From the IMG/VR virus record IMGVR_UViG_3300037104_000911, positions 2,818-66,817 of that record: DNA of 64,000 bases. The stretch is one strand, 5' to 3'. Every line of letters begins with the position of its first letter. The stretch's first letter is position 1. This stretch comes from a virus. The translations under genes and the position numbers were made by a program. The notes below the pieces were generated by a model. The model was not told the origin of the DNA, searched no databases, and was given only the letters and a program-made list of their open reading frames with translations. Below are positions 836 to 55,247 of the stretch, piece by piece.

Positions 836-3800
836 TTACGAAACAGTAATTGAACCAAAAGTTTTAGTATCTGCAGAAGGTAAACCAATTCTAACGTAGA
901 CTTGACCTGTTCTAACGGAAGAACCAAATGTAACCTTATGAGATGTTGATGTTGAGTTTCCAACAACACAAGCTGGATCACCATTATTAACTGGATCACC
1001 AACACCAGGATAAGCTGCATTTGCATCTATCCATCCAGTAACCCCTTCAACCTTAACATAAATTCTTAAATTACTTACAATTACACTTGAACCAAATCCA
1101 GAAGAATTATTAAATACAATAGTTATAGAAGAAGCATTTGTTATACTTAAAGGATTAAATGTTACATAACGCCAATCAGTTCCCATTCCTGTAGAATAAT
1201 CTGGACCTGCTGTAGGAAGATTATTGGTATAATTTCCTGTAGGTCTTCTATACAATCCATTGAGAAGTTGTAATTCTTCAACATAAGTAGTCTTTAAACT
1301 TATAGTGGAATCATATGCGCTTGTATAACCCAATGCTGGAAATTGTCCAGATCCTGAAGTTTTTCTAGTAGATTCATTGCTAACTGTATCTACTCTAATA
1401 GTGGTACTTTGAGCAATATTATAAGAAGTAGTTTTAGAATTATATCCATATAATGTAAATGCTGAAGTTTCAGAATATTTATTAGTAACAACCGTTACAT
1501 TAATATCTATATCAATATTATCATCATCATTGTAAGGTGTAGCTGAAGGAGCAATATCAGGACTATTTGTAATCCCTCCAGTTGAAGTTATACTTGCAAC
1601 TCTTACCTTAGCATAATGAGTATTAACAGCATTAGCTAATCTAAATTGAATTCTAATAGTTTCACCGACTGCCATTGAAACTACACCAGATATATATCTT
1701 GTGATACCCGAACCTGATGATGCTATAGCTGAATTATTGCTAAGAGTTACAACACCAGGATCATCAACATAGAAAGATAAAGAACTATCTCCTGTAATAC
1801 TATGAGATAACATATAAGTATGTAAACCAACAGCAAGATTTACTAATGGTGTAATATTAGCAATTAGTTGTTTCCAAAATCCTTGTTTTCCTGCTTGACC
1901 CACATAAGGATCTGTATCTGCAGTAATATTTAACCAAAGGTATGCGCCTACATCACTTGCAGATGAAATAATTTTACTACCATGTGATACTGTATCAACT
2001 TTAGCTTCTAATGTTCCATTATCTCCATCAAAGAAATTACTACAAGTTCCAACAGGTTTAAGAACATCAGTACATTTATCTTCAGTTTGAGAACCAATAC
2101 TTGATCTATATGCTTGATAAGAGGATAATATCATTGATATTACTGATAAATAAGAAGGTTTAGCAGGAGCTAATTTATTAAGAACAGAATCAATTTCAGA
2201 TAGAGCTTCTTGAACATCATCATCTGTTGAGGATAAAAATACCCAACCTGTTGATGTAGTAATAATATCAGCTGGGTGACCACTTGTTAATAAATCAGGT
2301 AGCTCAGAATGTGTATAAACACCTGCTTCTCCACTAAATCCAGAAATACCAACTCCTGAGAACCCACTTATTCCTATTCCATCTATACCTGAATATCCGC
2401 TTGCTCCTAAAGTTCCACTATAACCAGATATTCCTAGTCCATCAATACCACTATAACCGCTAAATCCAGACTCTCCACCACCTAGTCCATCAAGACCACT
2501 ATATCCAGAAATACCTACTCCATCTATTCCACTGTATCCAGAAATACCTATTTCACCACTATAACCAGATATACCATCAAGACCGCTATATCCTGAAATT
2601 CCTATTTCACCACTGTAACCTGACTCTCCACCACCTACTCCACCATAACCACTTGCTCCTGAATAACCAGATACACCATCAAGACCGCTAGAACCAGAAG
2701 TAATTAGTAAACTCCAATAAGTTTCCCAATTAACTCCTACCCCTGGTTCATTAGTAGATGAAGGAGTATTTTCTAATATACATATATAGACATTACCATT
2801 ATTTGTAACAATATTATTTACATGATAGGCAGGAGATGTTGTTGCTTCATACATTTCCCACTCAACAAGCATTGTATTGCCTGTATAAGCAAGATCATCA
2901 ATTTTATAAAATTTATATGAAGTTGAATTAGCAAAATTTATTGTATTCCACCCAACATCAACAGATAATCCGCTAAATGGTCCTGATAGTTTTGTCCATG
3001 ATCCATTTACACCATTTGTCGAATCATTTGAACCATAGAAATTTCCATCCTTTAATTGGAGTAAATCCCAACCTGCTAAACTATATAATTTTAGTGTAGT
3101 AATTATTTTCTCATTACCCACACCAAAATCAATAGCCATATAAGTAAATTTTGAAGGCTGGTTTCCATCATCAACCAATATTCCATCATCTACATTTTGC
3201 TTTACCCCATAATAATTATTGCTATAATGAGGGTAAGAAATATTAGTAACATTTGGACTACTACTACCTGATGACCAAGATCCTAAATAAATAAGACCAA
3301 TCCCACTATATCCAGAGGTTCCTATTTCACCACTATAACCGCTAAATCCAGACTCTCCACCACCTAGTCCATCAAGACCACTATATCCAGAAATACCTAT
3401 TTCACCACTAAATCCTGATGTACCTATTCCATCTATTCCGCTATAACCTGAAATACCTAATCCATCAAGACCACTATATCCTGATGTTCCTATTCCATCT
3501 ATTCCGCTATAACCACTATAACCAGATTCTCCACCACCTAATCCATCAAGACCGCTATATCCAGAAACACCTACTCCACTATAACCAGAAGGTCCTATTT
3601 CACCACTAAATCCAGATATTCCTAATCCATCAATACCACTATATCCAGATATTCCTAATTCACCACTGAATCCAGAAATACCTATTCCATCTATTCCGCT
3701 ATAACCTGAAATACCTAATCCACTATAACCAGATATTCCACTTACTCCACTTACTCCTGATATTCCAGAATAACCAGAAGCACCAGATAATCCATAAATA

Positions 3801-5920
3801 ACTCCACCAGAAGAAACTGCAACATATCCAGCTGTTGCAGATAACCAAACTATTGTTAAATTATTAGTATCTACAAAGGTTACAACTGGATAATCATAAC
3901 GACCATCAACAGCTACATAGTGACCACTTCCATCATTAATAGCTATTTCTACGTTAACAAATTGATAACCTAAATTATGAGGCACATTCCATGTTATAGC
4001 TGGAGAAGATTGATTAAATACAAATCCACCAGCAATTGCTGTTATTCCACTATAACCAGAAATTCCTGAATATCCACTTACTCCTGAAATTCCAGAATAA
4101 CCTGATATTCCTGAATATCCGCTTACTCCTGAGTAACCAGATATTCCAGAATCTCCAGATATTCCAGAATAACCAGATATTCCACTATATCCACTTATAC
4201 CCGAATATCCGCTTACTGCTAATAAACTCCAGTAGGTTATCCAATTAACTCCAATTCCTGGTTCTGTATCAACTGAAGAAGAATGTCCTAATATACATAA
4301 ATAGGTATTACCATTATGAGTAACTATATCATTGAACCCATAGGAAGCAGGAACAGAAGGAAGATCAAAATATTGAGTAGAGAGATGCACCATATTTGAT
4401 GCTTGTGCTGTTAAGAAAACTGTATAATTAATATTATCATTAGAACCAGAGACAGTAAAATCTTTAATACTTTGAGAATTATATTTACCAACTGTAACAC
4501 TTGCTATAACTCTAGATATACCAAGATCAACTTTCCACCAGTTGGGTAATTGTGATATATAAAACTGCCAATAACTATTTAGATTTGAATCTGAACAATT
4601 TGAAGGATCTCCATTTAAGGTTGCCCCAGCTGTATGAGGCATTGTTTCATTATTCCACTTATTATTTACTGGAGAAGGAGCATCACATACCCAAAGAGTT
4701 GCTTCAGAAACTAAATTACTATCCCAACCAGATATAATATCAAATCGTATATAACGATATTGAGGTAATCCTCCATTTGACCATTCACCCTTATATATTA
4801 ATCCAGCTCCTGAATAACCACTTACACCAGAAATTCCTGAATAACCACTTACACCAGAAATTCCTGAATAACCACTTACACCAGAAATTCCTGAATAACC
4901 AGATGTTCCACTATATCCTGAGTACCCACTGATTCCAGAATAACCTGAAATTCCAGAATATCCACTATCTCCAGAGATTCCAGAAAACCCACTTACACCA
5001 GAAATTCCTGAGTACCCACTTACACCAGAAATTCCACTATATCCCGAAACTCCTGAATCTCCACTTATACCAGAAATCCCACTATAACCAGATATACCAC
5101 TATATCCACTTATACCTGAGTACCCTGATATTCCACTATATCCTGAGTAACCACTGATCCCAGAATAACCAGATATTCCTAAATAACCACTTCTACCACT
5201 ATAACCAGATATACCACTATAACCAGATATACCACTATATCCACTTATACCTGAAACACTACTATAACCACTTATACCTGAAAAACCAGAATATCCTCGT
5301 AATCCTGGTTCATCTGAAAAGTTTATTGGTCTTGAGAAATCTTCTGGAACTGTTTCAAGATTAAATCTTTTAGCATACATTATCTGCATTGTAATGTTTG
5401 CTTCTAATGGTTTTAAAGATTCAACACCACTTGAGAAAATATAAGTTTTAAGAGTCCATACTCCTAAACTATATGTTATTCTTCCATAATATTGATTATC
5501 AAATGAGTCAAATATTGGGTTAAGATCATCAGAATTTCTTAGATCACATCTGTTTTTTGGAGAATCAGTTGGAACTCCCTCATCTGTTCCTGAGGATGAT
5601 ACTGAAATTTCTCCAGTCATATTTGTAGAAATATCATATGATGATACACCCGAAATTCCAGAAATAGGATTTGAAGATTGAACATTTCCGATTAATTTTC
5701 TACCAATAAAATCAGCTGTATTTCCTGAAATTCCACTATATCCAGAAATTCCATCTATTCCTCTTATTCCAGAATAACCTGAAAACCCAGTTACTCCACT
5801 ATATCCACTAGTTCCTGAATCACCACTATGACCATAGGGACCTGAATATCCACTAATACCAGGGATACCACTAGGACCTGAATATCCACTAGTTCCTACA
5901 ATTATAGTTGTTTTTTTCAT
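836..5920 (-). CDS. Tail fibre-like protein with Gly-X-Ser repeats and two discoidin (F5/8)-like domains
   Basis: 1694 aa; long (SGYSGI)n tracts; F5/8-like motifs WWKVDLG..KDFTVSGSND and MAIDFG..FYGSND..W. Confidence 0.7.
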   Translation of the reverse strand: MKKTTIIVGTSGYSGPSGIPGISGYSGPYGHSGDSGTSGYSGVTGFSGYSGIRGIDGISGYSGISGNTADFIGRKLIGNVQSSNPISGISGVSSYDISTNMTGEISVSSSGTDEGVPTDSPKNRCDLRNSDDLNPIFDSFDNQYYGRITYSLGVWTLKTYIFSSGVESLKPLEANITMQIMYAKRFNLETVPEDFSRPINFSDEPGLRGYSGFSGISGYSSVSGISGYSGISGYSGISGYSGRSGYLGISGYSGISGYSGYSGISGYSGISGYSGISGYSGISGISGDSGVSGYSGISGVSGYSGISGVSGFSGISGDSGYSGISGYSGISGYSGYSGTSGYSGISGVSGYSGISGVSGYSGISGVSGYSGAGLIYKGEWSNGGLPQYRYIRFDIISGWDSNLVSEATLWVCDAPSPVNNKWNNETMPHTAGATLNGDPSNCSDSNLNSYWQFYISQLPNWWKVDLGISRVIASVTVGKYNSQSIKDFTVSGSNDNINYTVFLTAQASNMVHLSTQYFDLPSVPASYGFNDIVTHNGNTYLCILGHSSSVDTEPGIGVNWITYWSLLAVSGYSGISGYSGISGYSGISGDSGISGYSGVSGYSGISGYSGISGVSGYSGISGYSGITAIAGGFVFNQSSPAITWNVPHNLGYQFVNVEIAINDGSGHYVAVDGRYDYPVVTFVDTNNLTIVWLSATAGYVAVSSGGVIYGLSGASGYSGISGVSGVSGISGYSGLGISGYSGIDGIGISGFSGELGISGYSGIDGLGISGFSGEIGPSGYSGVGVSGYSGLDGLGGGESGYSGYSGIDGIGTSGYSGLDGLGISGYSGIDGIGTSGFSGEIGISGYSGLDGLGGGESGFSGYSGEIGTSGYSGIGLIYLGSWSSGSSSPNVTNISYPHYSNNYYGVKQNVDDGILVDDGNQPSKFTYMAIDFGVGNEKIITTLKLYSLAGWDLLQLKDGNFYGSNDSTNGVNGSWTKLSGPFSGLSVDVGWNTINFANSTSYKFYKIDDLAYTGNTMLVEWEMYEATTSPAYHVNNIVTNNGNVYICILENTPSSTNEPGVGVNWETYWSLLITSGSSGLDGVSGYSGASGYGGVGGGESGYSGEIGISGYSGLDGISGYSGEIGISGYSGIDGVGISGYSGLDGLGGGESGFSGYSGIDGLGISGYSGTLGASGYSGIDGIGISGFSGVGISGFSGEAGVYTHSELPDLLTSGHPADIITTSTGWVFLSSTDDDVQEALSEIDSVLNKLAPAKPSYLSVISMILSSYQAYRSSIGSQTEDKCTDVLKPVGTCSNFFDGDNGTLEAKVDTVSHGSKIISSASDVGAYLWLNITADTDPYVGQAGKQGFWKQLIANITPLVNLAVGLHTYMLSHSITGDSSLSFYVDDPGVVTLSNNSAIASSGSGITRYISGVVSMAVGETIRIQFRLANAVNTHYAKVRVASITSTGGITNSPDIAPSATPYNDDDNIDIDINVTVVTNKYSETSAFTLYGYNSKTTSYNIAQSTTIRVDTVSNESTRKTSGSGQFPALGYTSAYDSTISLKTTYVEELQLLNGLYRRPTGNYTNNLPTAGPDYSTGMGTDWRYVTFNPLSITNASSITIVFNNSSGFGSSVIVSNLRIYVKVEGVTGWIDANAAYPGVGDPVNNGDPACVVGNSTSTSHKVTFGSSVRTGQVYVRIGLPSADTKTFGSITVS

Positions 5921-31297: not shown

Positions 31298-32746
31298 TTA
31301 AGCACCAATTGTCATAGAAGCAATACCCGCTGATCTTACAAGAGCTGTAGCATATCTTGAAAGAATGGTCAAGCTGGGTGTATATCCTAGTGGATAAGGA
31401 TGCAAAATAGCAGGAACATAAGGAGCATAGAAATAAACTGATCTAATTTCGTCTGTAGGAACATAAATTACAACCATGGTTCCCTGTAGAACTACAGAAC
31501 TAGTTAGAACCTTCCATTTTCCACCAGCTACTGTTGCAGTACGATAACCAACATCACCATTAACTGAAGAGGTTCCTGTATAAGCGAAACCATTTAGATC
31601 TTCTAGAATAGCTGCATCTAGAGGATTACAGAGAATAGTATTTGCAGAGTCAATATTGGTATCTGTATAAACCTGTGCTGACAACTGATTTAGGACAGGA
31701 ATAATATTTTCATGCCAATATTTATTTCCCCATAGATATGAGGATGGAGCGGTTCTATCAAAGTTACCTTGATGGGTAGCTTTATTTAATCTACTATTAG
31801 CTGTTAACAACGAGGTAACGATTTCTCTATCAATATCTAGAGCAATCTGTTGACCAAGTAGATTAACAATTTCAGCCTGCATGGAAACATCAAATAGAGC
31901 ACGCATATCCTGCTCCATGTTAATGGTCCAATTTGACTGAATCTGACGATCTTTAGCATACAGTCTAATCTTATCAACTGTCATGGTGATTTTTGGGTTG
32001 ATTCTGTTTTCTTCAAGTGAACAAGTTACTGTATACTTAACATCTATAACTTTACCTGTAGCACTAGAAATAGAAAGAGTACCATTCAAATAATCAACCA
32101 TACCAGAAATAACATCTGAATGACCTGTAACAGTTACACCAGAACTAAAATGACCTTCAACAGCTGGAACGATAGAAACATCAGCCCATGTAGTTCCATC
32201 TGTTACTGCGATAATCTGGAAATCTCTCTCAAGATGGGCATTAGTATTATTAGTACCAATTGCTCCAAGTACATCAAAAGCTGTCTGAGGAACAGCTGCC
32301 GTTCCTGCAGTTGTGGTTCCCAAACCAGGACCACCAGAAATATCGGTGCCAATAACAGGTGCCTGATACTGAGTAGCATCATTTGCTGGAGAGAACTTAG
32401 CATTAATGAATGCTTTAACAGTTTCGGGTTTATCCATAGGGGAAACTGTAACAGCTTCTTTTGCTACGAGCTTAGGATAAAAAACTCGGAGAATAGGCAT
32501 AGTTAAGGTTTCATAAGGATTAATCTGAAACATTGAATTTTCAAGCAAACTTACTCTGGTACTTTCACATAGTACCCTAAAAATTTCTTTATCTTTCTTT
32601 GATTCGAGACCTTCTGACAAACTTGTCATATATGTTTCAAATGCTTTATCATCCACTAAAATTGCTTTCATGTTTCCAGGTTTGGATGGGTCGATACCGG
32701 AAACTTTCTTGGTAGCCTTATAGGCCTCCATGAGTAGTTCCTTCAT
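31298..32746 (-). CDS. Major capsid protein (T4 gp23-like, HK97 fold)
   Basis: MPILRVFYPKLVA..VTVSPMDKP; AKDRQIQSNWTINMEQDM..QIALDIDREIV; YFYAPYVP; SRYA. Confidence 0.9.
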   Translation of the reverse strand: MKELLMEAYKATKKVSGIDPSKPGNMKAILVDDKAFETYMTSLSEGLESKKDKEIFRVLCESTRVSLLENSMFQINPYETLTMPILRVFYPKLVAKEAVTVSPMDKPETVKAFINAKFSPANDATQYQAPVIGTDISGGPGLGTTTAGTAAVPQTAFDVLGAIGTNNTNAHLERDFQIIAVTDGTTWADVSIVPAVEGHFSSGVTVTGHSDVISGMVDYLNGTLSISSATGKVIDVKYTVTCSLEENRINPKITMTVDKIRLYAKDRQIQSNWTINMEQDMRALFDVSMQAEIVNLLGQQIALDIDREIVTSLLTANSRLNKATHQGNFDRTAPSSYLWGNKYWHENIIPVLNQLSAQVYTDTNIDSANTILCNPLDAAILEDLNGFAYTGTSSVNGDVGYRTATVAGGKWKVLTSSVVLQGTMVVIYVPTDEIRSVYFYAPYVPAILHPYPLGYTPSLTILSRYATALVRSAGIASMTIGA

Positions 32747-43956: not shown

Positions 43957-45057
43957 TTATAATTTTGCTTTTTTCTGAGCCAAATGTCCAACTGCTCCAC
44001 CAACTACAGCTCCAAGAGGACCACCAACCATTCCACCTGCAGCTGCTCCACCTGCAGCTCCAGCCATTCCTTCTTTTACATCTTCTTCATCTTTATTTAT
44101 TTTTTTTTTTTCGTCTTCTTCATCTTCATCTTCTTTTTCTTTTGGTTCTTTTTCTTCAAGATCATCTTCTTCAACCATAAAGAACTCTTCTAGTTCATCT
44201 GCTTCACCCAGTTTATCTTTTTCATCTTCATCTTTCTCTTCTGCACCTTCAATCTGTTCTTTAAATAGTTTAAAAGCTTCTTCAATTTGATCAGATGCTG
44301 AATTATTTTTAATTCCTAAACCACTAGAATCTTCTTTCTGAACTTTTTTATCTACATCTAACTCTCCTTTTTCCTCTTCTGCTTCACCCTCTTCCTCTTC
44401 TGCTTCACCCTTATCTTTTTCTGCTTCACCCTCTTTCTCTTTTATTTCACCCTCTTTTTCCTCTTTTTCATCTTCTGCTTCTAACATAAGCATTTCAAGT
44501 TCTAAATCTTCTACGATCTTATCAACTTCCTCTTCGGAAGCTAAACCTGTTCCTGCTTCTTTTGTCTCTTCATCTTTTGGGGTTTCAATTTCTTCCATTT
44601 CAGAAATTAGTTTTTCAATTACAGCTTGTTCCATATTTTCAGCTATTCCTTCAAATTCCCCACCTTCTTCCTTTTCAAATTCTTTGGGAACTTTAACTGC
44701 ATCTTTAACTTCCCCACCTTCTTCATCATCTTCTAGCATAAACTCTTCAACGAGTTCATCTTCAAGATCACCCATAGTTTTCTTGACGTCCTCAGCTTCC
44801 TCACCAGTTTCAATTTCATTTTCCTCTGGTTCTTTCTCTTGAACATCCTGTTCTACAAATAATCTAGAATCAGAAGATTTCTCTTTGAAATAATATCTTT
44901 CAAGTACTGAAGAGGCATCTTTATGAGTCTGAAGTTCTCCACCCCCATCATAAGAAATAATTGGGTCAAGCATTGGACCTTTTACATTAAATGCTTTAGT
45001 ATCGTATTCAGAAATTGCTTCTTTTAAAAGCTCAACATAAGATATTTTCTTTTTCAT
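43957..45057 (-). CDS. Highly acidic prohead core/scaffold-like protein with C-terminal glycine zipper
   Basis: E/D-rich with many LxE/VxE sites; ends GMAGAAGGAAAGGMVGGPLGAVVGGAVG. Confidence 0.55.
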   Translation of the reverse strand: MKKKISYVELLKEAISEYDTKAFNVKGPMLDPIISYDGGGELQTHKDASSVLERYYFKEKSSDSRLFVEQDVQEKEPEENEIETGEEAEDVKKTMGDLEDELVEEFMLEDDEEGGEVKDAVKVPKEFEKEEGGEFEGIAENMEQAVIEKLISEMEEIETPKDEETKEAGTGLASEEEVDKIVEDLELEMLMLEAEDEKEEKEGEIKEKEGEAEKDKGEAEEEEGEAEEEKGELDVDKKVQKEDSSGLGIKNNSASDQIEEAFKLFKEQIEGAEEKDEDEKDKLGEADELEEFFMVEEDDLEEKEPKEKEDEDEEDEKKKINKDEEDVKEGMAGAAGGAAAGGMVGGPLGAVVGGAVGHLAQKKAKL

Positions 45058-45145
45058 AATAAATCAATCCTCCTAATATTAATATTGCTTCATTTTCTAT
45101 TTGTTCTTTATTTTTAAGGTGTTAGTCACTAGTTAGTTTCTCGGA

Positions 45146-46705
45146 CTAAAACATAGTTATTTTTTCTTCTGGTTTTATCTTATCTAATGCTTGCATGTCA
45201 TTTACATTTAACCCACTAAAAATTGTGGTATCGCTATCATTTACAATCTCTTCATCGGTTTTAGATTTATTTACTACCATATATCCATTAAGAAATTTAA
45301 ACATTGAAAAATCAACTTTAAAATCTAATGATAAATTAGCTATACCATTTCTATTTTTTCCAATATTCATATGAACTATATCTTGATGTTTATCTTTAGA
45401 CATAATTATGATACAATCTGCATGCTCAACTTTTTTTATACCCTCTGACATCATAGCCATATTTAAATCTTTTGATTCTAAATTTCCTCTATAAACATCT
45501 CTTGTTAGTTGAGAAGCTGTTATTACAGGAATACTATATTGAACCGCTATATCTTTAAGATTAGAGGTTATATGAGATAATTCTAACCTATATTGATCAT
45601 ATGCTATTGTATCTAATTTTAATAAATCTAAATAATCAACATATAAACTTTTAATAGAATTTGGACCATATATAGATTTGACATCATCCATAATCATCAT
45701 TATATCAGTTGGACTTATTGAAAATTTTGGATAATATTTAAATAAAACTGTTGTATTGTCTTTAACTATTTTATTTATAACTTGATTTTTCACATATCCT
45801 GGTGGGTCAGAAACATTTTCAGAATTAATCTCTCTCAAAAATTGAATATCTGTTTTTTCATACATACATTGATACATTCTCATTAAAGATTCATCTACTA
45901 AATTTTCAAGAGTTATAACCAAATGAACTTTTGGTTTTCCATCATCTTCTTGAATCTCATAAGATGTTTTTTTAGTTAATAAATCATTAACTATAAAATT
46001 CAACATCAAAGTAGATTTTCCGCCACCAGAACCTCCAGCAAAGATATATAGTCTTGATTTTTCAAATCCACCTTTAAAAACTTTATAATCTAGAACATCA
46101 TACCCGGTTGCTATGGTATTTCCTTTATCATACTTCTTTTTTATTAATTCAACAACTTTATTATAATCATCATTCATAATATCTAAACTTGATGAAGCTT
46201 CTACTTCTACTGCTCTACTACTTTCCATTAAATCAGAGTACATTGATTTTACAAATTTTTCATAATCCGAAACAATGTTATCAGCAGTATCAAACGATCC
46301 AGCTTTTACAGTTTCTAAAAATTTATTTAACTCTGCATAATTTGATAATAATGATATTAATTTTTTTCTGGTTCTTACTTGAGATATTCCATCATAAATT
46401 ATAGCGTCTTCATAATTTTCATTTATTATAGATGTTAAAAAATCTTCCATGTTTCTGTGTTTTGCACCTGTTAAAATACTATCAACTATTGTTTCCGATA
46501 ATTTATCTTCAAGTTTTAATTTACATATAGATTGTAAGCACTCCAATTTATTTTTTATAGATATAGGAATATTGGTTTTTTCCTTTTTTTCATAAAAAGA
46601 AATTATATTATATATATCTCTAAATAATGCTTTATTTTTTTTAATTAATGTATTCTTATTTAAAGTAAGAATAAAACATGTATTCAAAAATAACTCAGTA
46701 ATCAT
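45146..46705 (-). CDS. Replicative DnaB/gp41-like helicase
   Basis: TGYDVLD, AGGSGGGKS, ITLEN, YVDYLDLL, ITASQLTR, KNRNG. Confidence 0.92.
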   Translation of the reverse strand: MITELFLNTCFILTLNKNTLIKKNKALFRDIYNIISFYEKKEKTNIPISIKNKLECLQSICKLKLEDKLSETIVDSILTGAKHRNMEDFLTSIINENYEDAIIYDGISQVRTRKKLISLLSNYAELNKFLETVKAGSFDTADNIVSDYEKFVKSMYSDLMESSRAVEVEASSSLDIMNDDYNKVVELIKKKYDKGNTIATGYDVLDYKVFKGGFEKSRLYIFAGGSGGGKSTLMLNFIVNDLLTKKTSYEIQEDDGKPKVHLVITLENLVDESLMRMYQCMYEKTDIQFLREINSENVSDPPGYVKNQVINKIVKDNTTVLFKYYPKFSISPTDIMMIMDDVKSIYGPNSIKSLYVDYLDLLKLDTIAYDQYRLELSHITSNLKDIAVQYSIPVITASQLTRDVYRGNLESKDLNMAMMSEGIKKVEHADCIIIMSKDKHQDIVHMNIGKNRNGIANLSLDFKVDFSMFKFLNGYMVVNKSKTDEEIVNDSDTTIFSGLNVNDMQALDKIKPEEKITMF

Positions 46706-46929
46706 ATTTGTTGACCTTTCCTTTTTAACCCAGTTAATAATTTTATTTTATCTGTATTTTTTAAACTAGCAGGTGGATTCCAAATATCAAATTCAACTGG
46801 TCTTTTCACCCCAAAAATATTTTCAATCCAATCTAAGTCTTCTTTTCCACAACAAAAATCGCAATAATTATCACCAAAAGACCATATATCATTTCCTGCT
46901 TTTTCACCATTACACTTTAAACATTTCAT
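46702..46929 (-). CDS. Zn-finger DWI(E/D)NI family protein
   Basis: CxxCxG..CxxCxG..LDWIENIFG; start moved to ATG 46929. Confidence 0.6.
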   Translation of the reverse strand: MKCLKCNGEKAGNDIWSFGDNYCDFCCGKEDLDWIENIFGVKRPVEFDIWNPPASLKNTDKIKLLTGLKRKGQQI

Positions 46930-47306
46930 AACTCCACCCAATTTCCATCACCTGTTGAAATATTTATGTTATTTTTTTGAGTATCATAAAAAAGACTTCC
47001 TGCTGGTTGATTACTATAACCAGAACATCCACTTATTCCACAATATCCTACATAACCTGAGATACCACTATAACCACCAGCACCTCCTTGTGTACTATAA
47101 TAACCAGAAAATCCACTATATCCAGAAAAACCTCCAGATGTGGGAACTATTAAATCAACCCAGTTTATTCTTCCTTTTCCATGACATATACTACAAGGTG
47201 TTTTAATAGGACCATCTGGATTATCATCATCTACTAATATTTTATAACCATCATTACAATGAGGACATTTTAATTTTCCATCTTCTTGTATTGCACCACA
47301 GGTCAT
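46926..47306 (-). CDS. Zn-finger family protein with a tail-fibre-like C-terminus
   Basis: CPHC..CSICHGKGRINWVDLI then SGYSG repeats and GSLFYDT..GNW. Confidence 0.65.
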   Translation of the reverse strand: MTCGAIQEDGKLKCPHCNDGYKILVDDDNPDGPIKTPCSICHGKGRINWVDLIVPTSGGFSGYSGFSGYYSTQGGAGGYSGISGYVGYCGISGCSGYSNQPAGSLFYDTQKNNINISTGDGNWVEL

Positions 47307-47572
47307 AATATTTCACCTTTATACATTCTTAACATTATATCTTTATCTATTTCTAAAGCTATTTCTTTTGCCATTTTTTCTGCAATTTCATTCATAGTTG
47401 ATATTCCAAATGAATTAGATAAATCTAAATCAAAAGAAAATGAATGAAATCCTGGTGTAACCCCAAATATATTTTCAATCCAATCCAAATCTTTTTTTCC
47501 ATGACAAAAATTACACCAAAGAACTGATTCTTCTGGATTTGTAAATTTTCCATTGCAATTTGGACATTTCAT
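47303..47572 (-). CDS. Zn-finger family protein with an MCP-like C-terminus
   Basis: CPNC..CNFCHG..DWIENI then EIALEIDKDI. Confidence 0.65.
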   Translation of the reverse strand: MKCPNCNGKFTNPEESVLWCNFCHGKKDLDWIENIFGVTPGFHSFSFDLDLSNSFGISTMNEIAEKMAKEIALEIDKDIMLRMYKGEIL

Positions 47573-48946
47573 CTAAAACCTCAATAATCTATTATTTGTT
47601 AATTCAACAAATTCATCTTTAGCTAAACTTTTATTTACTATATATTGACAATATTCTTCGTCTAATTTCACCAACATATCTAATGACCTTGAAATTGCTG
47701 TAGTTTTTGATTTTTGTTTTTTTGATTGTCTTCCTGAATTTATGTTCTTTGTTATTCCATTTACATCTTCGGTGAAATCAGCTAACTCTCCACTCATATA
47801 TAACTCATATAAATCATCAACTCTAGATCTAAACATTTTTTCAACATAATCAAATAAACTTATCATATATAACATTGAATAAATTTTATAATCATTATAG
47901 AATGTTCCAGTATCTGAATTATAAATATCTTTAGTTGAAGGTATTTCTTTTAAATTATTTTCTCTAGCAAATTCATTAATTCTTTTTTTATAAACTTCAA
48001 CTACAGTTCCTTCTTCATTAAATCTCATATTTAAACAAATACCTCTTAAATCAGTTTTTCTAACTAAATCTCCATCAATCAATGGAATATATCTTCCCAT
48101 CATAAATCCTTTAAATATAGTTGATGAATCGTATGTTATATATAATTCAAGTCCATGTTCTTTTCTAACTACCTTTTTAAATAACTCATAAAATAAAAGA
48201 TCTCTATGAGTAGCTCCACCCAATATATGAAAGTGTAATTCTTTTCTATTAAATTTTAAAGCTTGATTAATAAGAGGAATTAAAGGAAGGACATAAATGA
48301 TACAAGGAATAGTCATATCAGATCCCATATTTGCAACTATCCCGCCTGTTGCATGATATTTAAAATCATTAAACATATCTTCATGATTTAAAATACTTGT
48401 ATAAATATCCCAAAGTTTTGGAGTTCTAAAATGATGAATATATATGATTTTATCCCTTACTTCCTTTGGCATGGTTCTTGCTTTATTATAAGATTCAAAA
48501 TTCATTCTATGAACATCATAAAAATTATCAAAAACTGTGCATCCTGGTCCAGGTGGAACATCTAAAATAAATGCTCTCTGATATGTATCTTTATAATCAA
48601 CAAGAAATTCATAATAAATTTTCATTAAAACTTCTGTTTCTTTTTTATTAAGCATCCCGATTGAAATTTGAAATGCTCCACTGTCAAGGTAGTAACTAGC
48701 ATTTTCAGAAAATCCATAATCTCTACACTCTGTTAAACATTTAGCTTCAGCTGCTGAGTGCCTACTATAATTTTTTTTGTTTTTGAAATTTTGACCATAT
48801 GAATGGAGAAACTTATCACATTTGTCAGTAAATATTTTTGCTATATCATCTTTTGTAAAATTGTTTTCGAATTCAGCTGCTTTCATGAATCTAAAAATTA
48901 TATTAAAAAGAGTTTCAAATCCAGCCAAAGCATATCCACTTGCCAT
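47573..48946 (-). CDS. TGT/DpdA-like guanine transglycosylase
   Basis: YLDSGAFQ, FILDVP, FHILGG, TYDSST motifs of the TGT barrel; queE nearby. Confidence 0.6.
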   Translation of the reverse strand: MASGYALAGFETLFNIIFRFMKAAEFENNFTKDDIAKIFTDKCDKFLHSYGQNFKNKKNYSRHSAAEAKCLTECRDYGFSENASYYLDSGAFQISIGMLNKKETEVLMKIYYEFLVDYKDTYQRAFILDVPPGPGCTVFDNFYDVHRMNFESYNKARTMPKEVRDKIIYIHHFRTPKLWDIYTSILNHEDMFNDFKYHATGGIVANMGSDMTIPCIIYVLPLIPLINQALKFNRKELHFHILGGATHRDLLFYELFKKVVRKEHGLELYITYDSSTIFKGFMMGRYIPLIDGDLVRKTDLRGICLNMRFNEEGTVVEVYKKRINEFARENNLKEIPSTKDIYNSDTGTFYNDYKIYSMLYMISLFDYVEKMFRSRVDDLYELYMSGELADFTEDVNGITKNINSGRQSKKQKSKTTAISRSLDMLVKLDEEYCQYIVNKSLAKDEFVELTNNRLLRF

Positions 48947-49096
48947 TATTCACCATCCTCTTCTATTAATTTCATAAGTTCTTCTAAAGTTATTGAACAT
49001 TTTGCCCATTTAATATCATTTTCTAATCTAGTTATAATTTCTAAATTTTTCCAATGTCCAATTACCTTTACAATTATAACATTCAAATTCCATCAT
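48946..49096 (-). pseudogene. Truncated Zn-finger paralogue joined to an HNH C-terminal remnant
   Basis: MEFECYNCKG.. stops early; a second frame reads IGHWKNLEII..EN..K..KCSITLEEL. Confidence 0.5.
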
Positions 49097-49316
49097 AATA
49101 ACCACCACATAGATGTGAAATTGGAATTCCTACAGCTTTGGACATATCATTCCATATGATTTCCCAGTGATCTTTATTAGGAATAATATTATCAACCCAA
49201 TCCAATTTTCCTTCACCATTACAAGTATAGCATTTTAATTTGTAAGCTCTCATATTTCTATTTAATTTTACACGCCATCCAGTTCCACCACATTCGTAAC
49301 ATTCAAATTCTACCAT
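49083..49316 (-). CDS. Zn-finger family protein with a portal-like C-terminus
   Basis: CYECGGTG..CYTCNGEGKLDWVDNI then MSKAVGIPISHL. Confidence 0.65.
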   Translation of the reverse strand: MVEFECYECGGTGWRVKLNRNMRAYKLKCYTCNGEGKLDWVDNIIPNKDHWEIIWNDMSKAVGIPISHLCGGYYDGI

Positions 49317-49546
49317 TATTTTTTCTCCTCATTATAATAAGAAGAACAATAACTATCGCCACTTGTTGAATAATGCGCAAAACAATAACTTAAACTTTCA
49401 GGATGAATAATATTATCAATCCAATCTATTTTTCCAGTTCCTTTGCAAACCCAACAAATTTCTGTATAAACTTCATTTATTATAAAATTACCTTCTCCAT
49501 TGCACTCATAACAAACATATTCACCTTTATTCTTCAATAATTCCAT
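49316..49546 (-). CDS. Zn-finger DWIDNI family protein
   Basis: CYECNGEG..CWVCKGTGKIDWIDNI; start uncertain. Confidence 0.6.
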   Translation of the reverse strand: MELLKNKGEYVCYECNGEGNFIINEVYTEICWVCKGTGKIDWIDNIIHPESLSYCFAHYSTSGDSYCSSYYNEEKK

Positions 49547-49799
49547 ATATTTCGCCAAGTTTCAAAACTTTAATTATTTTTCCATTAAGAATAATATCTT
49601 GACCACCAAACTTAGCAAAAGCTACAACATCTCCAACTTTAATTGTTTTAGCATCTTCGCCTACACTAATAACTTTTCCATATTTCTGTGGTTCAATTTC
49701 TACATTTTGCGGAAGAACTAATCCACCTTCAGTTGTATTTTCTTTTGGCATAACTACTTCAACAATAACATGATCATTTATTGCATTAATCTTTTTCAT
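49527..49799 (-). CDS. groES: Co-chaperonin GroES
   Basis: DHVIVE..TEGGLVLP..GKVISVG..IKVGDVVAFAKFGG. Confidence 0.92.
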   Translation of the reverse strand: MKKINAINDHVIVEVVMPKENTTEGGLVLPQNVEIEPQKYGKVISVGEDAKTIKVGDVVAFAKFGGQDIILNGKIIKVLKLGEIYGIIEE

Positions 49800-50049
49800 T
49801 TCTTTCTCCTTTGGTTGTTTTTTGCTTAAAATACTCTTTTCTTTTTTCTCTTTCTAATCTTCTTCTTGCTTCATTTTCTTTTTTTCTTCGAGCAATACTA
49901 GGTTTATCAAATTGAGATTTTCTTTTAAGATCTTTTAAGATTCCACTCTTATTAACTTTCTTTTTGAATCTTTTAATCATCGACTCAATGTCTTCACCAT
50001 CTCTTTTTACAATACATATTCCTACTTCATATACTTTATTGTAATACAC
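49786..50049 (-). CDS. rpsU: Ribosomal protein bS21
   Basis: EDIESMIKRFKKKV..GIL..FDKPSIARRKK. Confidence 0.88.
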   Translation of the reverse strand: MYYNKVYEVGICIVKRDGEDIESMIKRFKKKVNKSGILKDLKRKSQFDKPSIARRKKENEARRRLEREKRKEYFKQKTTKGERNEKD

Positions 50050-50050
50050 T

Positions 50051-50278
50051 TTAATTTGTCACCTCCTTTATTTCTTCAAATGTTATACTTTTTATATCAT
50101 TTAATGATATTTTTTCTTCAATTAAACTATTTACAATTTCATAAAATAACACACTCATAATACTTTCTTCAACATCTGCTCCAAGAACAAGAGAACCATG
50201 AATCATATTTTCTTTATCAAATAATGCTCTTAGTTCTTTTGTTTCACCATTTGTTGTTTCTATTAAAACTTTTTTCAT
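50051..50278 (-). CDS. Hypothetical protein
   Basis: AGGAGG SD plus ORF. Confidence 0.6.
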   Translation of the reverse strand: MKKVLIETTNGETKELRALFDKENMIHGSLVLGADVEESIMSVLFYEIVNSLIEEKISLNDIKSITFEEIKEVTN

Positions 50279-50286
50279 TTTTCCTC

Positions 50287-50982
50287 CTAAATAAAATCAT
50301 AGATCACATGATCTCTTGAACTAAAATTTGCTGAATATTTTTCGCACATATCAAAAACAAATGGAGCATTTTTAATTAATTCATCTTTTGACTTTCCCTG
50401 TGGCATTAACCAAATTCTGTTGGTGTTGAACTTCGTTTCTTTTAAAAAATCTAAAAATTGATGTATCTCTGGTCTATTCTCAGTAACAAGTTTGATTATA
50501 ACTTTATCATTATCTTTAATGTTTTCAATTAAATTTTTATAAAAACTAAAATCTTCATCTGTAAATAGTTTTGGAGATAAAACATAGGTTACGTTTTTAT
50601 TTTTATTTATTCCTTCAATCATTTTTTCAAGATTGCACCCATTTGTTTCAATATTGTAAAGATATGATTTAGTTAAATTGACAATATCTATTGTTGATTG
50701 TAAATTAAATCCAAATCCGGGTTCACCACCGCTGATGAGGCAACCAAGATTATTTTCATCAATCATAAGTTGTATATCTTTAATATTATAATTTGCTTCT
50801 TGCATCACCTGCATTTTAACGATTGTGTCACAAAAACTACATGCTGTTAACCCATTTTTTTCTAAATAACCATGAGCTCTATTACATCTTTTAAATCTTA
50901 GAAGAAGCATTTTCTTTCCAGAATCTACGCTCTCTCCTTGCCATGTGTAATTTATCAATTCCAAAAGTCTTACTGTTTTCAT
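50287..50982 (-). CDS. queE: 7-carboxy-7-deazaguanine synthase (radical SAM)
   Basis: TWQGE, RFKRC-x14-CSFCDT, SGGEP, IETNG, LSPK, LMPQ. Confidence 0.85.
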   Translation of the reverse strand: MKTVRLLELINYTWQGESVDSGKKMLLLRFKRCNRAHGYLEKNGLTACSFCDTIVKMQVMQEANYNIKDIQLMIDENNLGCLISGGEPGFGFNLQSTIDIVNLTKSYLYNIETNGCNLEKMIEGINKNKNVTYVLSPKLFTDEDFSFYKNLIENIKDNDKVIIKLVTENRPEIHQFLDFLKETKFNTNRIWLMPQGKSKDELIKNAPFVFDMCEKYSANFSSRDHVIYDFI

Positions 50983-51025
50983 TTAAAATCCTTTCTATTT
51001 ATATTATGTTCTTTGATTCAAATTT

Positions 51026-51289
51026 TTATACTTGTATTAGTTTAATAATATCTTGTTCAACTTGCTCTTTAGTTGGAAATTTTTGAAAAATATTATACCT
51101 TAAAAATTTCCATCCTTCTCCTTCAATTTTTTCTTGTCTATTTTTGTGATATTCTTTATGTTCTTCAGTATCAAAATGATACCAACCATCAAATTCGATA
51201 GCTATTTTATATTCAACTAATGCTACATCAATTGAATAATTAAAAACTTGATACTGTGAGTCAGCAGAATATAAATTAGTTCTAAAATT
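51026..51289 (-). pseudogene. Start-less DUF559 nuclease domain in the +1 frame at the polymerase stop
   Basis: YSIDVAL..IAIEFDGWYH..RQEKIEGEGWKFLRY; upstream in-frame TAA and no start codon. Confidence 0.65.
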
Positions 51290-54659: not shown

Positions 54660-55247
54660 ATGGTAAATGGCGGTCAGGAAATTTTAAGTCAGTTGTTTAA
54701 TCAAACCAATAATTCTAATCTGGTAGGAAAAGAAACAATGGAAACGGACGATCACTTAAAACAAAATCTAACTCAACCTTCTATTTTTTTGAAATCTTCT
54801 AATTGCCCAGCATGTGGAGGAACTGGAGATTGGAAATCTCAAATTTCAAAAACAATAACTAAAATAATTAAATGTAAACGTTGTGTAAATGGATTTATCC
54901 CTGTTCCTTGTAATAATTGTATTGATGGGTGGTCTGAAATAGGACCATGTAGAACCTGTCATGGAACAGGAATCTATGTATATTATCCTACAGATAGATA
55001 TCCTGAAGGTAAGGTATGTAGATTCTGTTTAGGAACAACAAAAATTATCAGAAAAAAAGTCATAACTATTCCAAAAATTCAGTGCTTAAAATGCAAGGGG
55101 ACTGGAATTTTACAACAGTCAAAGTCATTTAATCCTGTTATAAAAGAAAAAGATATTGCACTTATAAAAATGATAGATAAGATGACTTCAGTACTTTTTG
55201 AATCAAAAAATCCAGATGAAAGTATAGAAGAATCTTTAGTTGCTTAA
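54660..55247 (+). CDS. DnaJ-type CxxCxGxG Zn-finger protein
   Basis: Several CxxCxGxG repeats; AGGAGG SD. Confidence 0.75.
   Translation: MVNGGQEILSQLFNQTNNSNLVGKETMETDDHLKQNLTQPSIFLKSSNCPACGGTGDWKSQISKTITKIIKCKRCVNGFIPVPCNNCIDGWSEIGPCRTCHGTGIYVYYPTDRYPEGKVCRFCLGTTKIIRKKVITIPKIQCLKCKGTGILQQSKSFNPVIKEKDIALIKMIDKMTSVLFESKNPDESIEESLVA

What the first reader, a model, noticed from the sequence alone, without database searches (positions are those of the whole stretch)
46702..49558. Zn-finger scaffold array displaying fragments of the phage's own virion proteins (possible decoys)
Seen: five small paralogues, plus a broken sixth, share CxxCxG...CxxCxGxGx(L/I)(D/N)W(I/V)(E/D)xI but have unrelated C-termini. 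47303-47572 ends DLSNSFGISTMNEIAEKMAKEIALEIDKDI, which aligns without gaps to this phage's MCP DMRALFDVSMQAEIVNLLGQQIALDIDREI (11/30 identical by my count). 49083-49316 ends DHWEIIWNDMSKAVGIPISHL, matching the pattern of portal DEIKMLRDTLVSNLGVPASFL. 46926-47306 ends in SGYSG repeats like the tail fibre, plus a GSLFYDT..GNW fibre-type motif. The other two tails (KRPVEFDI, SYCFAHY) only weakly recall sheath and MCP motifs. Established: defence sensors such as Avs4 (portal) and CapRel (MCP) recognise virion proteins. Inference: a modular mimic system that titrates host sensors, interferes with assembly of competing phages, or regulates the phage's own assembly. It sits outside the structural operon.
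Basis: partly seen in the sequence, partly recalled or inferred. Interest (0 to 1): 0.9.

Follow-up and report, generated by a model that had tools for sequence, protein, structure and literature searches.

The report
Zinc-ribbon array displaying virion protein fragments
A large uncultured phage carries a row of small zinc-binding proteins whose variable tails copy short pieces of its own capsid and tail-fibre proteins, part of a big undescribed family that may control or disguise virion assembly.

Summary
Five minus-strand ORFs (46702-49558), plus a one-knuckle remnant, share one DnaJ-CRD-like zinc ribbon ending (K)LDWIENI.

The zf3 tail is homologous to the phage's own gp23-type capsid protein, residues 271-318. 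A profile built only from 11 foreign tails finds zf3 (E 2.6e-9) and the MCP (2.3e-8) among 125 window ORFs; the next hit is 0.38. The zf2 tail is collagen-like, as in the tail fibre (0 of 200 shuffles reach its score). The portal (zf4), sheath (zf1) and MCP (zf5) resemblances are no better than shuffles.

The module defines a large family: 5,728 representatives at E<=1e-3. It occurs in tandem arrays of 2-14 in at least two jumbo-phage lineages. Recurrent tail classes map genome-wide onto:
- two MCP segments;
- the sheath N-terminus;
- the sheath C-terminal domain;
- the shared N-terminus of clustered putative fibre paralogues.

Ten non-MCP control proteins and reversed tails give 0-1 hits.

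The function is untested. I favour interface mimics that dock on unassembled virion proteins, as chaperones or regulators (about 0.4). Decoys for host sensors remain possible (about 0.2). Seven paper searches found no description. Three look-ups of this scan's earlier notes found no record of this family on other DNA.

The parts
49316..49546 (-). zf5: Zn-ribbon paralogue (76 aa from ATG 49546; the ORF call starts at TTG 49558). The parent of its tail (HPESLSYCFAHY...) is unknown. Its start overlaps the 3' end of the GroES gene.
   Evidence: module HMM E=1.9e-13; tail no better than shuffles; no parent in relatives; an RNA-library contig covers 49385-49535
49083..49316 (-). zf4: Zn-ribbon paralogue (77 aa). 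Its tail belongs to a small recurrent class (..MxKxxG(I/L)PxS(H/Y)LxCxG) with no established parent.
   Evidence: E=2.8e-17; portal link not supported; only weak hits (E 0.0015-0.012) in three adjacent 370-391-aa ORFs of one relative
49031..49129 (-). Remnant of a sixth copy. It keeps the first CxxCxG knuckle only (start resembles zf4), then a stop. It overlaps the 46-aa ORF 48946-49086.
   Evidence: module HMM E=0.18; six-frame reading
47303..47572 (-). zf3: Zn-ribbon paralogue (89 aa) with a class A tail, homologous to the gp23-type MCP segment (strand plus long helix).
   Evidence: AlphaFold2 gives helix 57-88 with block-mean pLDDT 95-98
46926..47306 (-). zf2: Zn-ribbon paralogue (126 aa). 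Its tail is collagen-like Gly-X-Y repeats (4 + 8 triplets) followed by a class B motif (GSLFYDT..GNW).
46702..46929 (-). zf1: Zn-ribbon paralogue (75 aa from ATG 46929; the ORF call starts at TTG 46941). Its tail shares IWNP..KIK with one homologue (P0007). The parent is unknown. Its stop overlaps the DnaB start.
   Evidence: (E=1.9e-11)
31793..31936 (-). Parent segment: MCP residues 271-318 (gene 31298-32746, Pfam Gp23 E=1.8e-32), matched by class A tails including zf3.
836..5920 (-). Parent: 1694-aa collagen-repeat tail fibre (Pfam Collagen E=6.8e-47) whose SGYSG-type repeats match the zf2 tail. A second collagen-bearing 259-aa ORF lies at 40-819.
45146..50049 (-). Gene block that holds the array: S21-like, GroES, zf5, zf4, remnant/46-aa ORF, DpdA/TGT-like (47573-48946), zf3, zf2, zf1, DnaB helicase. 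Genes abut or overlap, and no terminator-like site was found.

Best explanation
WHAT IT IS (shown). The locus is a tandem array of five paralogous small proteins plus one remnant. They belong to a large, unnamed phage family. Each has one constant N-terminal zinc ribbon made of two CxxCxG(xG) knuckles, half of a DnaJ cysteine-rich domain, ending in a conserved short helix (K)LDWIENI(V/F)GKK. A variable C-terminal tail follows.

Many tails are homologous copies of short pieces of the phage's own polymerising virion proteins:
- In this window: the MCP strand-plus-long-helix segment (zf3) and collagen-like fibre repeats (zf2).
- Elsewhere in the family: the conserved N-terminal MCP segment, the first ~20 residues of the sheath, the sheath C-terminal domain, and the shared N-terminal domain of fibre-like paralogues.

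HOW IT MOST LIKELY WORKS (inferred). The displayed pieces are elements through which these proteins contact neighbouring subunits. Each tail would dock on the complementary surface of the unassembled virion protein, as a microProtein-like interface mimic. The constant zinc ribbon would serve as a common handle, either an oligomerisation surface or a site for a shared partner.

The array is expressed from the replication and early-metabolism gene block, next to a phage GroES. It would then hold or cap MCP, sheath and fibre subunits, acting as dedicated assembly chaperones or timers that suppress premature or off-pathway polymerisation.
For: Paralogy.

Family size and arrays:
- 5,728 representatives at E<=1e-3 and 250 at E<=1e-10.
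- 16 viral loci, with 2-14 copies in each locus.
- Conserved position PolB-QueE-(S21)-GroES-..-DpdA-[array]-DnaB in 8 relatives. The class A member is the last gene before DnaB in 7 of 8.

MCP homology:
- A foreign-only class A profile hits zf3 at 2.6e-9 and the window MCP at 2.3e-8; the next hit is 0.38.
- In 5 of 5 related genomes (113-277 kb, six frames) the MCP ORF is the top hit, E 1.7e-11 to 5.6e-11. The only other hits are the genomes' own class A genes.
- The tail of homologue P0062 passes Pfam's Gp23 gathering score: 38.1 bits against 24.4, profile positions 149-195. By tblastn it hits 1,296 phage records. 18 of the 25 listed rows lie under genes annotated as major capsid or head protein; the other 7 are unannotated or 'hypothetical protein'.
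- Gp23 is the only Pfam family matched by more than one of 57 tails (5 tails).

Second MCP segment: a class G profile hits the window MCP at residues 78-104, E 8.9e-7, next hit 0.22. In 5 of 5 relatives it hits only the MCP ORF.

Sheath:
- Class C tails hit the 664-aa sheath ORF at E 1e-12 to 2.6e-11. That ORF scores Pfam Phage_sheath_1C 9.7e-9 and PHROG tail sheath 2.3e-57.
- Class S tails hit only the N-terminus of the same ORF, E about 2e-5, in 3 of 5 genomes.

Fibre-like parents. The zf2 collagen tail.

Specificity control: 176 non-redundant tails were scored against HMMs of 11 proteins of this phage group. The MCP gets 8 hits at E<=0.01. Eight of the ten control proteins get 0, and QueE and g42860 get 1 each from the same tail. 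Reversed tails get 0.

Overall, 61 of 176 tails fall in classes with a virion parent.

Interface character of the parents:
- The sheath handshake beta-sheet is completed by linkers from adjacent chains (passages of PMC8195476).
- In T4 gp23, residues 66-105 are ordered only through contacts with neighbouring subunits, and the neighbour's I domain sits on the spine-helix/A-domain junction (passages of PMC9546572).

The tails are under purifying selection, with rough omega of 0.20-0.54 in orthologue pairs. The zf3 tail is a confident long helix.
Against: - No binding, expression-timing or phenotype data exist. The mechanism is inference from anatomy.
- Three of the five window tails (zf1, zf4, zf5) and 115 of 176 family tails have no identified parent.
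- Class A tails diverge widely, while the MCP segment they copy is almost invariant among six relatives. The tails therefore do not visibly track their supposed target.
- The array sits among replication and nucleotide-modification genes and abuts dnaB, not in a morphogenesis module.
- Mimics of assembly interfaces would be expected to poison assembly unless kept sub-stoichiometric or removed.
- The label 'spine helix' for MCP 289-318 rests on alignment to T4 gp23 plus recalled structure knowledge. My own MCP model was too poor to check it (mean pLDDT 44).
- That the sheath linkers are the N- and C-terminal arms is recalled, not read.
Confidence: 0.4

Rival explanations
1. Anti-defence decoys. 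The tails imitate the peptide epitopes of virion proteins that host abortive-infection sensors recognise. Made before the late proteins, they would occupy or desensitise the sensors without activating them.
For: - The displayed proteins include known kinds of trigger. The MCP is sensed by CapRel (title and abstract of PMC9712102 in the search listing), by Lit through the 29-residue Gol region of gp23 bound to EF-Tu (section read in PMC3014915), and by Avs7, Avs8 and Avs10. Other virion parts (portal, tail tube and others) are sensed by further Avs families (abstract of 10.64898/2026.01.04.697583). That abstract does not list the sheath or fibres.
- Class G tails copy the conserved N-terminal MCP segment. 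That segment aligns weakly with the T4 region beginning at mature residue 28, which is full-length residue 93. From memory this is the Gol region.
- The array lies in an early or middle gene block.
- Copy number and content vary between relatives, as in counter-defence islands.
Against: - Avs7 is described as enveloping the whole HK97 fold (3,700 A2 buried). A 16-50-residue fragment is a poor mimic of that.
- A Gol-like peptide would be expected to activate Lit rather than block it.
- Orthologous tails show purifying selection, not diversifying selection, at the coarse level tested (omega 0.20-0.54, with dS often saturated).
- The class A member is conserved in every relative at a fixed position. 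That looks like a core function rather than an accessory arms-race gene.
- The fragments chosen are inter-subunit assembly elements.
Confidence: 0.2
2. Weapons against competing phages, or superinfection interference. These would be dominant-negative interface mimics that poison capsid, sheath or fibre assembly of co-infecting relatives or satellites.
For: The anatomy is the same as for the best explanation: interface fragments of polymerising proteins. The phage group is abundant, with many co-occurring relatives: 678 MCP homologues at E<=1e-10, and the 120 listed are 70-100% identical, the 100% row being the window's own MCP.
Against: The MCP segments copied are nearly invariant across relatives, including the carrier itself. 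The carrier would therefore be poisoned as well. No immunity logic is visible.
Confidence: 0.12
3. Incorporation tags. The virion-derived tails co-assemble with their parents and so deliver the zinc ribbon, the real effector, into or onto the particle.
For: Several tails are complete docking elements: the sheath C-terminal domain over profile positions 6-104 of 104, the N-terminal domain shared by clustered fibre-like paralogues, and collagen repeats able to join a triple helix.
Against: The MCP-derived tails are single internal segments that cannot form a capsomer position. No role is evident for a 45-residue zinc ribbon at four different virion sites. No proteomics are available.
Confidence: 0.1
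4. Replication-associated zinc ribbons (helicase-loader or primase-like accessories), whose tails resemble virion proteins only through old domain shuffling with no present functional link.
For: The class A gene overlaps or abuts the dnaB start in 7 of 8 relatives, and zf1 does so in the window. There are weak hits to the primase-helicase zinc ribbon PF08273 (E 0.017 for zf5; 0.043 for P0162).
Against: - At least six independent tail classes map to virion proteins. The ten other proteins of this phage group tested as controls, PolB, DnaB and GroES among them, get 0-1 hits.
- Tails are conserved under purifying selection.
- In the second lineage the arrays lie near RNA polymerase beta-like, RtcB and radical-SAM genes. 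No helicase was seen among the ten neighbours scanned.
Confidence: 0.08

Closest known systems
DnaJ central cysteine-rich domain (PF00684) and DnaJ-like zinc-finger assembly factors such as BSD2 (PF25436)
   Same: CxxCxGxG-type knuckles pair to bind zinc. This is the best-scoring Pfam family for the module (zf4 23.4 bits; P0028 32.6 bits). BSD2_CRD gives weak hits for several homologues. From memory, BSD2 is a small assembly chaperone that holds Rubisco large-subunit intermediates.
   Different: There are only two knuckles (one zinc site), not four. Every window protein scores below the gathering score of 32.7. There is no J domain. The family adds a conserved LDWIENI helix and client-derived tails, neither known in DnaJ or BSD2.
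Anti-TRAP (RtpA; PF15777 / NF058604)
   Same: A small (~50 aa) stand-alone DnaJ-type zinc ribbon that acts purely by protein-protein binding. Weak hits recur across the family.
   Different: All scores are far below the cut-offs (at most 25.8 bits against 32; 20.5 against 65). Anti-TRAP has no variable tail and no LDWIENI motif. Whether this family oligomerises was not tested.
Eukaryotic microProteins (small single-domain proteins that titrate related larger proteins)
   Same: A small protein carries a copy of an interaction element of a larger protein. It is proposed to engage the parent in non-productive or held complexes (abstracts of PMC9638782 and PMC5381583 seen in the search listing).
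   Different: That concept comes from plants and animals and concerns transcription factors. Here the parents are virion subunits, the copies are fused to a constant zinc ribbon, and they come as tandem arrays. Action on the parent is not shown.
Gol peptide / Lit and other MCP-sensing defences (CapRel, Avs7)
   Same: They show that short or whole MCP elements are read by host systems, and that the most conserved gp23 region binds EF-Tu (abstract).
   Different: These are host sensors and their triggers, not phage-encoded mimics. No phage decoy made of a virion fragment was found in my searches.
Dedicated T4 morphogenesis chaperones (gp31 co-chaperonin for gp23; gp57A and gp38 for fibres) - recalled, not tested
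   Same: Phage-encoded, non-structural helpers specific for MCP or fibres. A GroES/gp31-type gene lies directly upstream of the array (Cpn10 E=1.8e-14; conserved in 8 relatives).
   Different: No sequence relationship exists. The known chaperones do not contain fragments of their clients.

Membership tests
DnaJ central cysteine-rich domain (PF00684) | CxxCxGxG zinc knuckles | tested here: met
   There are two knuckles per protein. C3, C6, C20, C23 and G25 are invariant in A1. The consensus over 75 modules is CxxCxGxG...CxxCxGxGKLDW.
DnaJ central cysteine-rich domain (PF00684) | Four knuckles forming two zinc centres, and a score at or above the gathering cut-off (32.7 bits) | tested here: not met
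   Each of the five has only two knuckles. The best window score is 23.4 bits for zf4; the other scoring ones are 18.3 (zf5) and 15.7 (zf3).
DnaJ/Hsp40 co-chaperone | J domain and C-terminal client-binding domains | tested here: not met
   No J-domain or DnaJ_C hit at E<=1. The NCBIfam DnaJ models score 13-15 bits against cut-offs above 300.
Anti-TRAP (PF15777 / NF058604) | Score at or above the curated cut-off (32 bits; 65 bits) | tested here: not met
   Window proteins score 11.8-14.5 bits and 14.2-19.1 bits.
Gp23 major capsid protein (PF07068) | Score at or above the gathering cut-off (24.4 bits) | tested here: not met
   zf3 scores 19.1 bits whole and 20.9 bits for the tail alone. Homologue P0062 does pass, with 38.1 bits. 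The homology is therefore real, but zf3 itself is sub-threshold.
Gp23 major capsid protein (PF07068) | Full HK97-type capsid domain | tested here: not met
   Only profile positions 160-195 of 376 are matched; the range is 148-195 in homologues. It is a fragment, not a capsid protein.
Collagen triple-helix repeat (PF01391) | Runs of Gly-X-Y triplets | tested here: met
   The zf2 tail carries (GXY)4 and (GXY)8 runs. It is flagged by the (G..){5,} test. It aligns with fibre repeats at 62-70% identity over 40-45 residues.
Collagen triple-helix repeat (PF01391) | Pfam score at or above 27.2 bits | tested here: not met
   zf2 has no Collagen hit at E<=1. Homologue P0019 scores 21.3 bits.
microProtein-type interface mimic (concept) | Small protein carrying a copy of an interaction element of a larger protein of the same genome | tested here: met
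   for zf3 and the MCP; for homologues and the sheath
microProtein-type interface mimic (concept) | Binds and titrates the parent protein | not testable with these tools
   This needs pull-downs or assembly assays.
Phage anti-defence decoy | Blocks a host sensor of the mimicked protein | not testable with these tools
   This needs co-expression with defence systems.

The most novel reading that the evidence does not exclude
The arrays are a modular, programmable counter-defence. A constant zinc-ribbon handle presents interchangeable 'self-peptides' cut from the most conserved assembly interfaces of MCP, sheath and fibres. These blind host sensors, or host factors such as EF-Tu, that read those peptides on unassembled virion proteins. 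Phages would then carry a cassette library of molecular disguises for their own core proteome.
Probability: 0.2. Interest if true: 0.95.

Novelty: categorically new. Interest (0 to 1): 0.85.

Why it matters
If the tails act on their parents, this would be the first family of phage proteins built as 'constant handle plus fragment of a virion subunit'. It would point to a general, modular way to hold, time or mask the assembly of capsids, sheaths and fibres.

The family is large (thousands of 50%-identity clusters) and array-forming. It has no curated Pfam or NCBIfam family of its own; its only PHROG matches are DnaJ-type zinc-ribbon families, most of unknown function and two labelled Q-like anti-termination protein. 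It therefore touches a sizeable piece of viral dark matter.

It also gives a directly testable handle on two open questions:
- How do jumbo phages prevent off-pathway polymerisation of very abundant subunits?
- Do phages counter the recently described host sensing of the core virion proteome?

In practice, the tails are natural peptide ligands for MCP, sheath and fibre interfaces.

Tried and rejected
COMPLEX PREDICTION. zf3 (alignment A8) with the MCP (A9) gave 'no answer', score 0.00. I do not count it either way.

STRUCTURE.
- Foldseek of the zf3 model against the PDB found nothing.
- VIA-align wide gave only generic single helices, Z at most 3.1.
- The AlphaFold2 model of the MCP was too poor to use (mean pLDDT 44). 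I could not verify the spine-helix assignment or 3D contacts.

PORTAL LINK FOR zf4. Rejected.

PARENTS NOT FOUND.
- The zf1 class (A14) and the zf5 tail gave nothing in five related genomes.
- Class Q (..INPxFKKQLER..) found only its own member.
- A local profile of class Y (NELYGSF) found nothing significant in the window.

PDB SEQUENCE SEARCHES WITH TAIL PROFILES.
- Class S hit methionine aminopeptidases, not sheaths. The sheath assignment rests on the genome-wide hits.
- Class G hit nothing.
- Class C gave only weak hits: at least two sheath proteins (Afp2, E 0.19; phage sheath FI, E 1.1) among 16 rows.
- Class B gave nothing relevant.
- Class B hits to DUF7360 (2 of 10) and DUF2793 (2 of 10) could not be interpreted. 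I did not confirm that this motif is fibre-specific.

RELATIVES AND CONTEXT.
- The search for related loci with the DpdA-like protein found none.
- blastn of the locus against phage records gave no match.
- tblastn of P0011 and P0054 against phage records gave no match. I found no cultured carrier, but short divergent queries are weak.

OTHER CHECKS.
- The ESM Atlas gave no named cluster; its DksA/TraR-like rows have TM below 0.5.
- The promoter and terminator scan was uninformative: 45 sites against 45.7 expected, and 0 terminators.
- RNA-library contigs are short. They come from the same study as a possible source sample and may be DNA carry-over. Uncovered parts say nothing.

LITERATURE. 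No description of the family turned up in four searches aimed at it, out of seven paper searches run:
- 'DnaJ-like zinc finger' + bacteriophage + 'major capsid protein': 0 papers.
- zinc finger / phage / capsid protein fragment / mimic: nothing relevant among the 10 listed.
- CXXCXGXG + phage: 11 papers. In the one I read, the motif is an insertion in a DNA polymerase.
- 'Gol peptide' / 'Lit protease'.
The trigger library of the Avs preprint and the gene tables of huge-phage papers could hold relevant entries that I could not see.

IDEAS REJECTED.
- Recent capture of gene fragments by a mobile element. zf3 has no DNA similarity to the MCP gene, and class A is deeply conserved.
- Chance amphipathic-helix resemblance, rejected.

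Full report
THE LOCUS.

The window is part of a 66.8-kb viral contig with about 27% G+C. The phage has a gp23-type capsid protein. Its closest cultured relatives share only about 26% MCP identity. Uncultured relatives with 69-71% MCP identity reach 277 kb with terminal repeats.

On the minus strand the genes run in this order: S21-like, GroES (Cpn10, E 1.8e-14), zf5, zf4, a 46-aa ORF, a DpdA/TGT-like gene, zf3, zf2, zf1 and DnaB (DnaB_C, E 1.8e-20). They abut or overlap. No terminator-like site lies in 45000-51200.

THE OBSERVATION.

The five small ORFs are paralogues.
- Invariant positions are C3, C6, C20, C23, G25, W31 and I35.
- Pairwise E-values run from 8.7e-12 to 0.066.
- A sixth copy survives as a first knuckle followed by a stop, at 49031-49129.

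The tails differ completely.

zf3.
- The MCP is the best of 120 non-paralogue ORFs, and 0 of 200 shuffles reach its score.
- Pfam Gp23 and PHROG 138 (major head protein) are the top tail hits, at profile positions 160-195.
- The decisive test uses a profile built from 11 homologous tails of other phages. It finds only zf3 (2.6e-9) and the MCP (2.3e-8, residues 271-318) among 125 window ORFs. The next hit is 0.38.

zf2. The tail is a Gly-X-Y repeat region like those of the 1694-aa collagen fibre.
- 0 of 200 shuffles reach its score.
- DNA similarity reaches 81% over 59 nt.
- A motif of a recurrent class follows the repeats.

zf4, zf1 and zf5. The claimed portal, sheath and MCP resemblances are no better than shuffles.
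- The shuffle tests give P of 0.20, 0.41 and 0.41.
- The best zf4-portal alignment falls inside the intein.
- A portal HMM hits 0 of 176 tails.

THE FAMILY.

- A word-indexed search with the five paralogues found 32 proteins at E<=0.01 among 166 candidates. Five of them are the window's own.
- A pattern scan of viral contigs gave 16 loci, with 2-14 copies in each.
- A profile of 75 modules, searched against 1.84 billion representatives, found 5,728 proteins at E<=1e-3 and 250 at E<=1e-10. Of the 148 new proteins among the best 150, 111 carry the LDW motif.

Two phage lineages carry arrays.
- The window's own group has the conserved order PolB-QueE-(S21)-GroES-..-DpdA-[array]-DnaB-..-portal. 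The class A member is the last gene before DnaB in 7 of 8 relatives.
- A second group encodes an RNA polymerase beta-like protein and RtcB.

I found no carrier among cultured phage records. One unannotated 484-kb uncultured phage record matches both module and tail of P0062.

THE TAILS ARE PIECES OF VIRION PROTEINS.

I grouped 176 non-redundant tails of at least 15 aa and mapped each class genome-wide, in six frames, in five related records of 113-277 kb.

- Class A (28 tails). The MCP ORF is the top hit in 5 of 5 records, E 1.7e-11 to 5.6e-11. Nothing else is hit except the resident class A genes. One member passes Pfam's curated Gp23 threshold at 38.1 bits. By tblastn it hits 1,296 phage records; 18 of the 25 listed rows are annotated as capsid or head protein genes.
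- Class G (5 tails). Only the MCP ORF is hit, in 5 of 5 records. In the window the hit is at residues 78-104, E 8.9e-7.
- Class C (3 tails). The hit is the C-terminal domain of a 664-aa ORF, E 1e-12 to 2.6e-11. That ORF is the tail sheath.
- Class S (7 tails). The sole hit is the N-terminus of the same sheath ORF, E about 2e-5, in 3 of 5 records. The sequence there reads MANISPGVYTKIIDLSTYV.
- Class I (4 tails). The hits are the N-termini of clustered paralogues of 132-711 aa.
- Class B (12 tails, including zf2). The hit is an internal motif of those 424-442-aa proteins and of 356-369-aa ORFs. Their only annotation is weak PHROG hits to 'virion structural protein' (2e-5) and 'minor tail protein' (3e-4).
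- Collagen-like tails: 3.

In all, 61 of 176 tails fall in these classes, or 58 of the 129 tails of at least 30 aa. These counts include the sequences used to train the class profiles.

Controls. HMMs of PolB, DnaB, DpdA, QueE, GroES, the portal and four others gave 0-1 hits, against 8 for the MCP. Reversed tails gave none. Among 57 tails scanned against Pfam, Gp23 was the only family hit more than once.

Results against. PDB sequence searches did not recover sheaths for class S (they found MetAP instead) or gp23 for class G. Also, 115 tails remain unexplained.

WHAT THE PIECES HAVE IN COMMON.

- The window MCP aligns with T4 gp23. Residues 254-318 match the region ...SRQLKAAYSIELAQDL...EINREVV. 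Residues 77-104 align weakly with the mature N-terminal region.
- In T4, residues 66-105 become ordered only through neighbour contacts. The neighbour's I domain sits on the spine-helix/A-domain junction (passages of PMC9546572).
- The sheath handshake sheet is completed by linkers from adjacent chains (passages of PMC8195476). That these are the N- and C-terminal arms is my recollection.
- Shared N-terminal domains of fibre paralogues, and collagen repeats, are oligomerisation or docking elements. This is inference.

So the tails look like assembly-interface elements rather than random fragments.

OTHER FINDINGS.

- The zf3 tail folds as a confident long helix: residues 57-88, block-mean pLDDT 95-98.
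- Orthologous tails are under purifying selection, omega 0.20-0.54, with dS often saturated.
- The tails diverge much faster than the near-invariant MCP segment.
- The phage occurs in peat and permafrost metagenomes of several studies.
- Short RNA-library contigs, 100% identical, cover part of zf5, DnaB and the DpdA-like gene. This is weak evidence, because DNA carry-over is possible.

MECHANISM.

What is shown is the architecture and the homology. What is inferred is that each tail docks on the surface that normally receives that element, while the constant ribbon with its conserved LDWIENI helix supplies a common function.

I rank the readings as follows:
- holding, capping or timing of assembly: about 0.4;
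- sensor decoys: about 0.2;
- anti-competitor poisons: about 0.12;
- incorporation tags: about 0.1;
- replication accessories with vestigial tails: about 0.08.

Against decoys for fold-reading sensors, Avs7 buries 3,700 A2 of the whole MCP fold.

For decoys, there is peptide-level sensing of the conserved gp23 Gol region with EF-Tu. That class G corresponds to the Gol region rests plus coordinates I recalled from memory.

COMPARISON AND NOVELTY.

The module is DnaJ-CRD/anti-TRAP-like but fails both families' thresholds and has half the knuckles. The logic resembles eukaryotic microProteins (abstracts only). The four paper searches aimed at the family, out of seven run, the family libraries and the Atlas gave no description of a zinc-ribbon family displaying virion fragments. 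Earlier notes of this scan hold nothing on it. I rate it categorically new in architecture, with the function open.

Noticed in passing
window 37512-40568 (-): The portal (Portal_T4, E 9.6e-20) is interrupted by an intein carrying an HNH nuclease (Intein_splicing 1.5e-14; HNH_3 2e-5). The best zf4-portal alignment falls in this intein.
   Followed up: partly
window 51282-54530 (-): A family B DNA polymerase carries an N-terminal uracil-DNA glycosylase superfamily domain (UDG, E 3.4e-18, residues 33-175).
   Followed up: no
window 49786-50049 (-) and 49527-49799 (-): A phage ribosomal protein S21-like gene (phrog_21469, E 4.2e-7) lies directly upstream of a GroES/Cpn10 gene. The pair is conserved in several relatives.
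   Followed up: partly
window 54660-55247 (+); L013:186-815 (-): A 195-aa protein carries at least four CxxCxG knuckles (DnaJ_CXXCXGXG, E 1.6e-6, below cut-off). Similar multi-knuckle proteins of 197-286 aa lie near the arrays in relatives. Only the L013 copy was matched to it by BLAST. It is a possible partner of the single-ribbon family.
   Followed up: no
window 47573-48946 (-) and 50287-50982 (-): A DpdA/TGT-like gene (phrog_887, E 4.9e-6) splits the array, and a QueE-like radical SAM gene (phrog_2076, E 6.9e-23) lies nearby. This suggests 7-deazaguanine DNA modification.
   Followed up: no
window 48946-49086 (-): A 46-aa ORF overlaps the broken sixth copy. It resembles the C-terminal ~40 residues of two PHROG families of unknown function, each about 230-246 aa long (phrog_5104, E 2.2e-4; phrog_23051, E 7.7e-4). 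It is possibly another gene fragment.
   Followed up: no
window 35156-36064 (-): A TnsA-like endonuclease N-terminal domain sits with NUMOD3 motifs among the head genes. It is a likely free-standing homing endonuclease.
   Followed up: no
G008:C1:234421-237344 and G005:C1:102404-106306 (loci L031, L032, L039-L041): A cluster of paralogues of 132-711 aa shares one N-terminal domain of about 60 residues. This is the pattern expected of multiple fibres or spikes with a common anchor. The same domain appears as a tail on zinc-ribbon proteins.
   Followed up: partly
L012:10141-12324 (+): In the second array-bearing phage lineage, an RtcB RNA ligase is interrupted by an HNH-type intein (Intein_splicing, E 3.7e-20).
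   Followed up: no
L010:11859-12473 (+): A class A family member has a long Gly-rich insert (a run of nine glycines, then GYGAGGSGYAG) between the zinc ribbon and the MCP-like helix.
   Followed up: no
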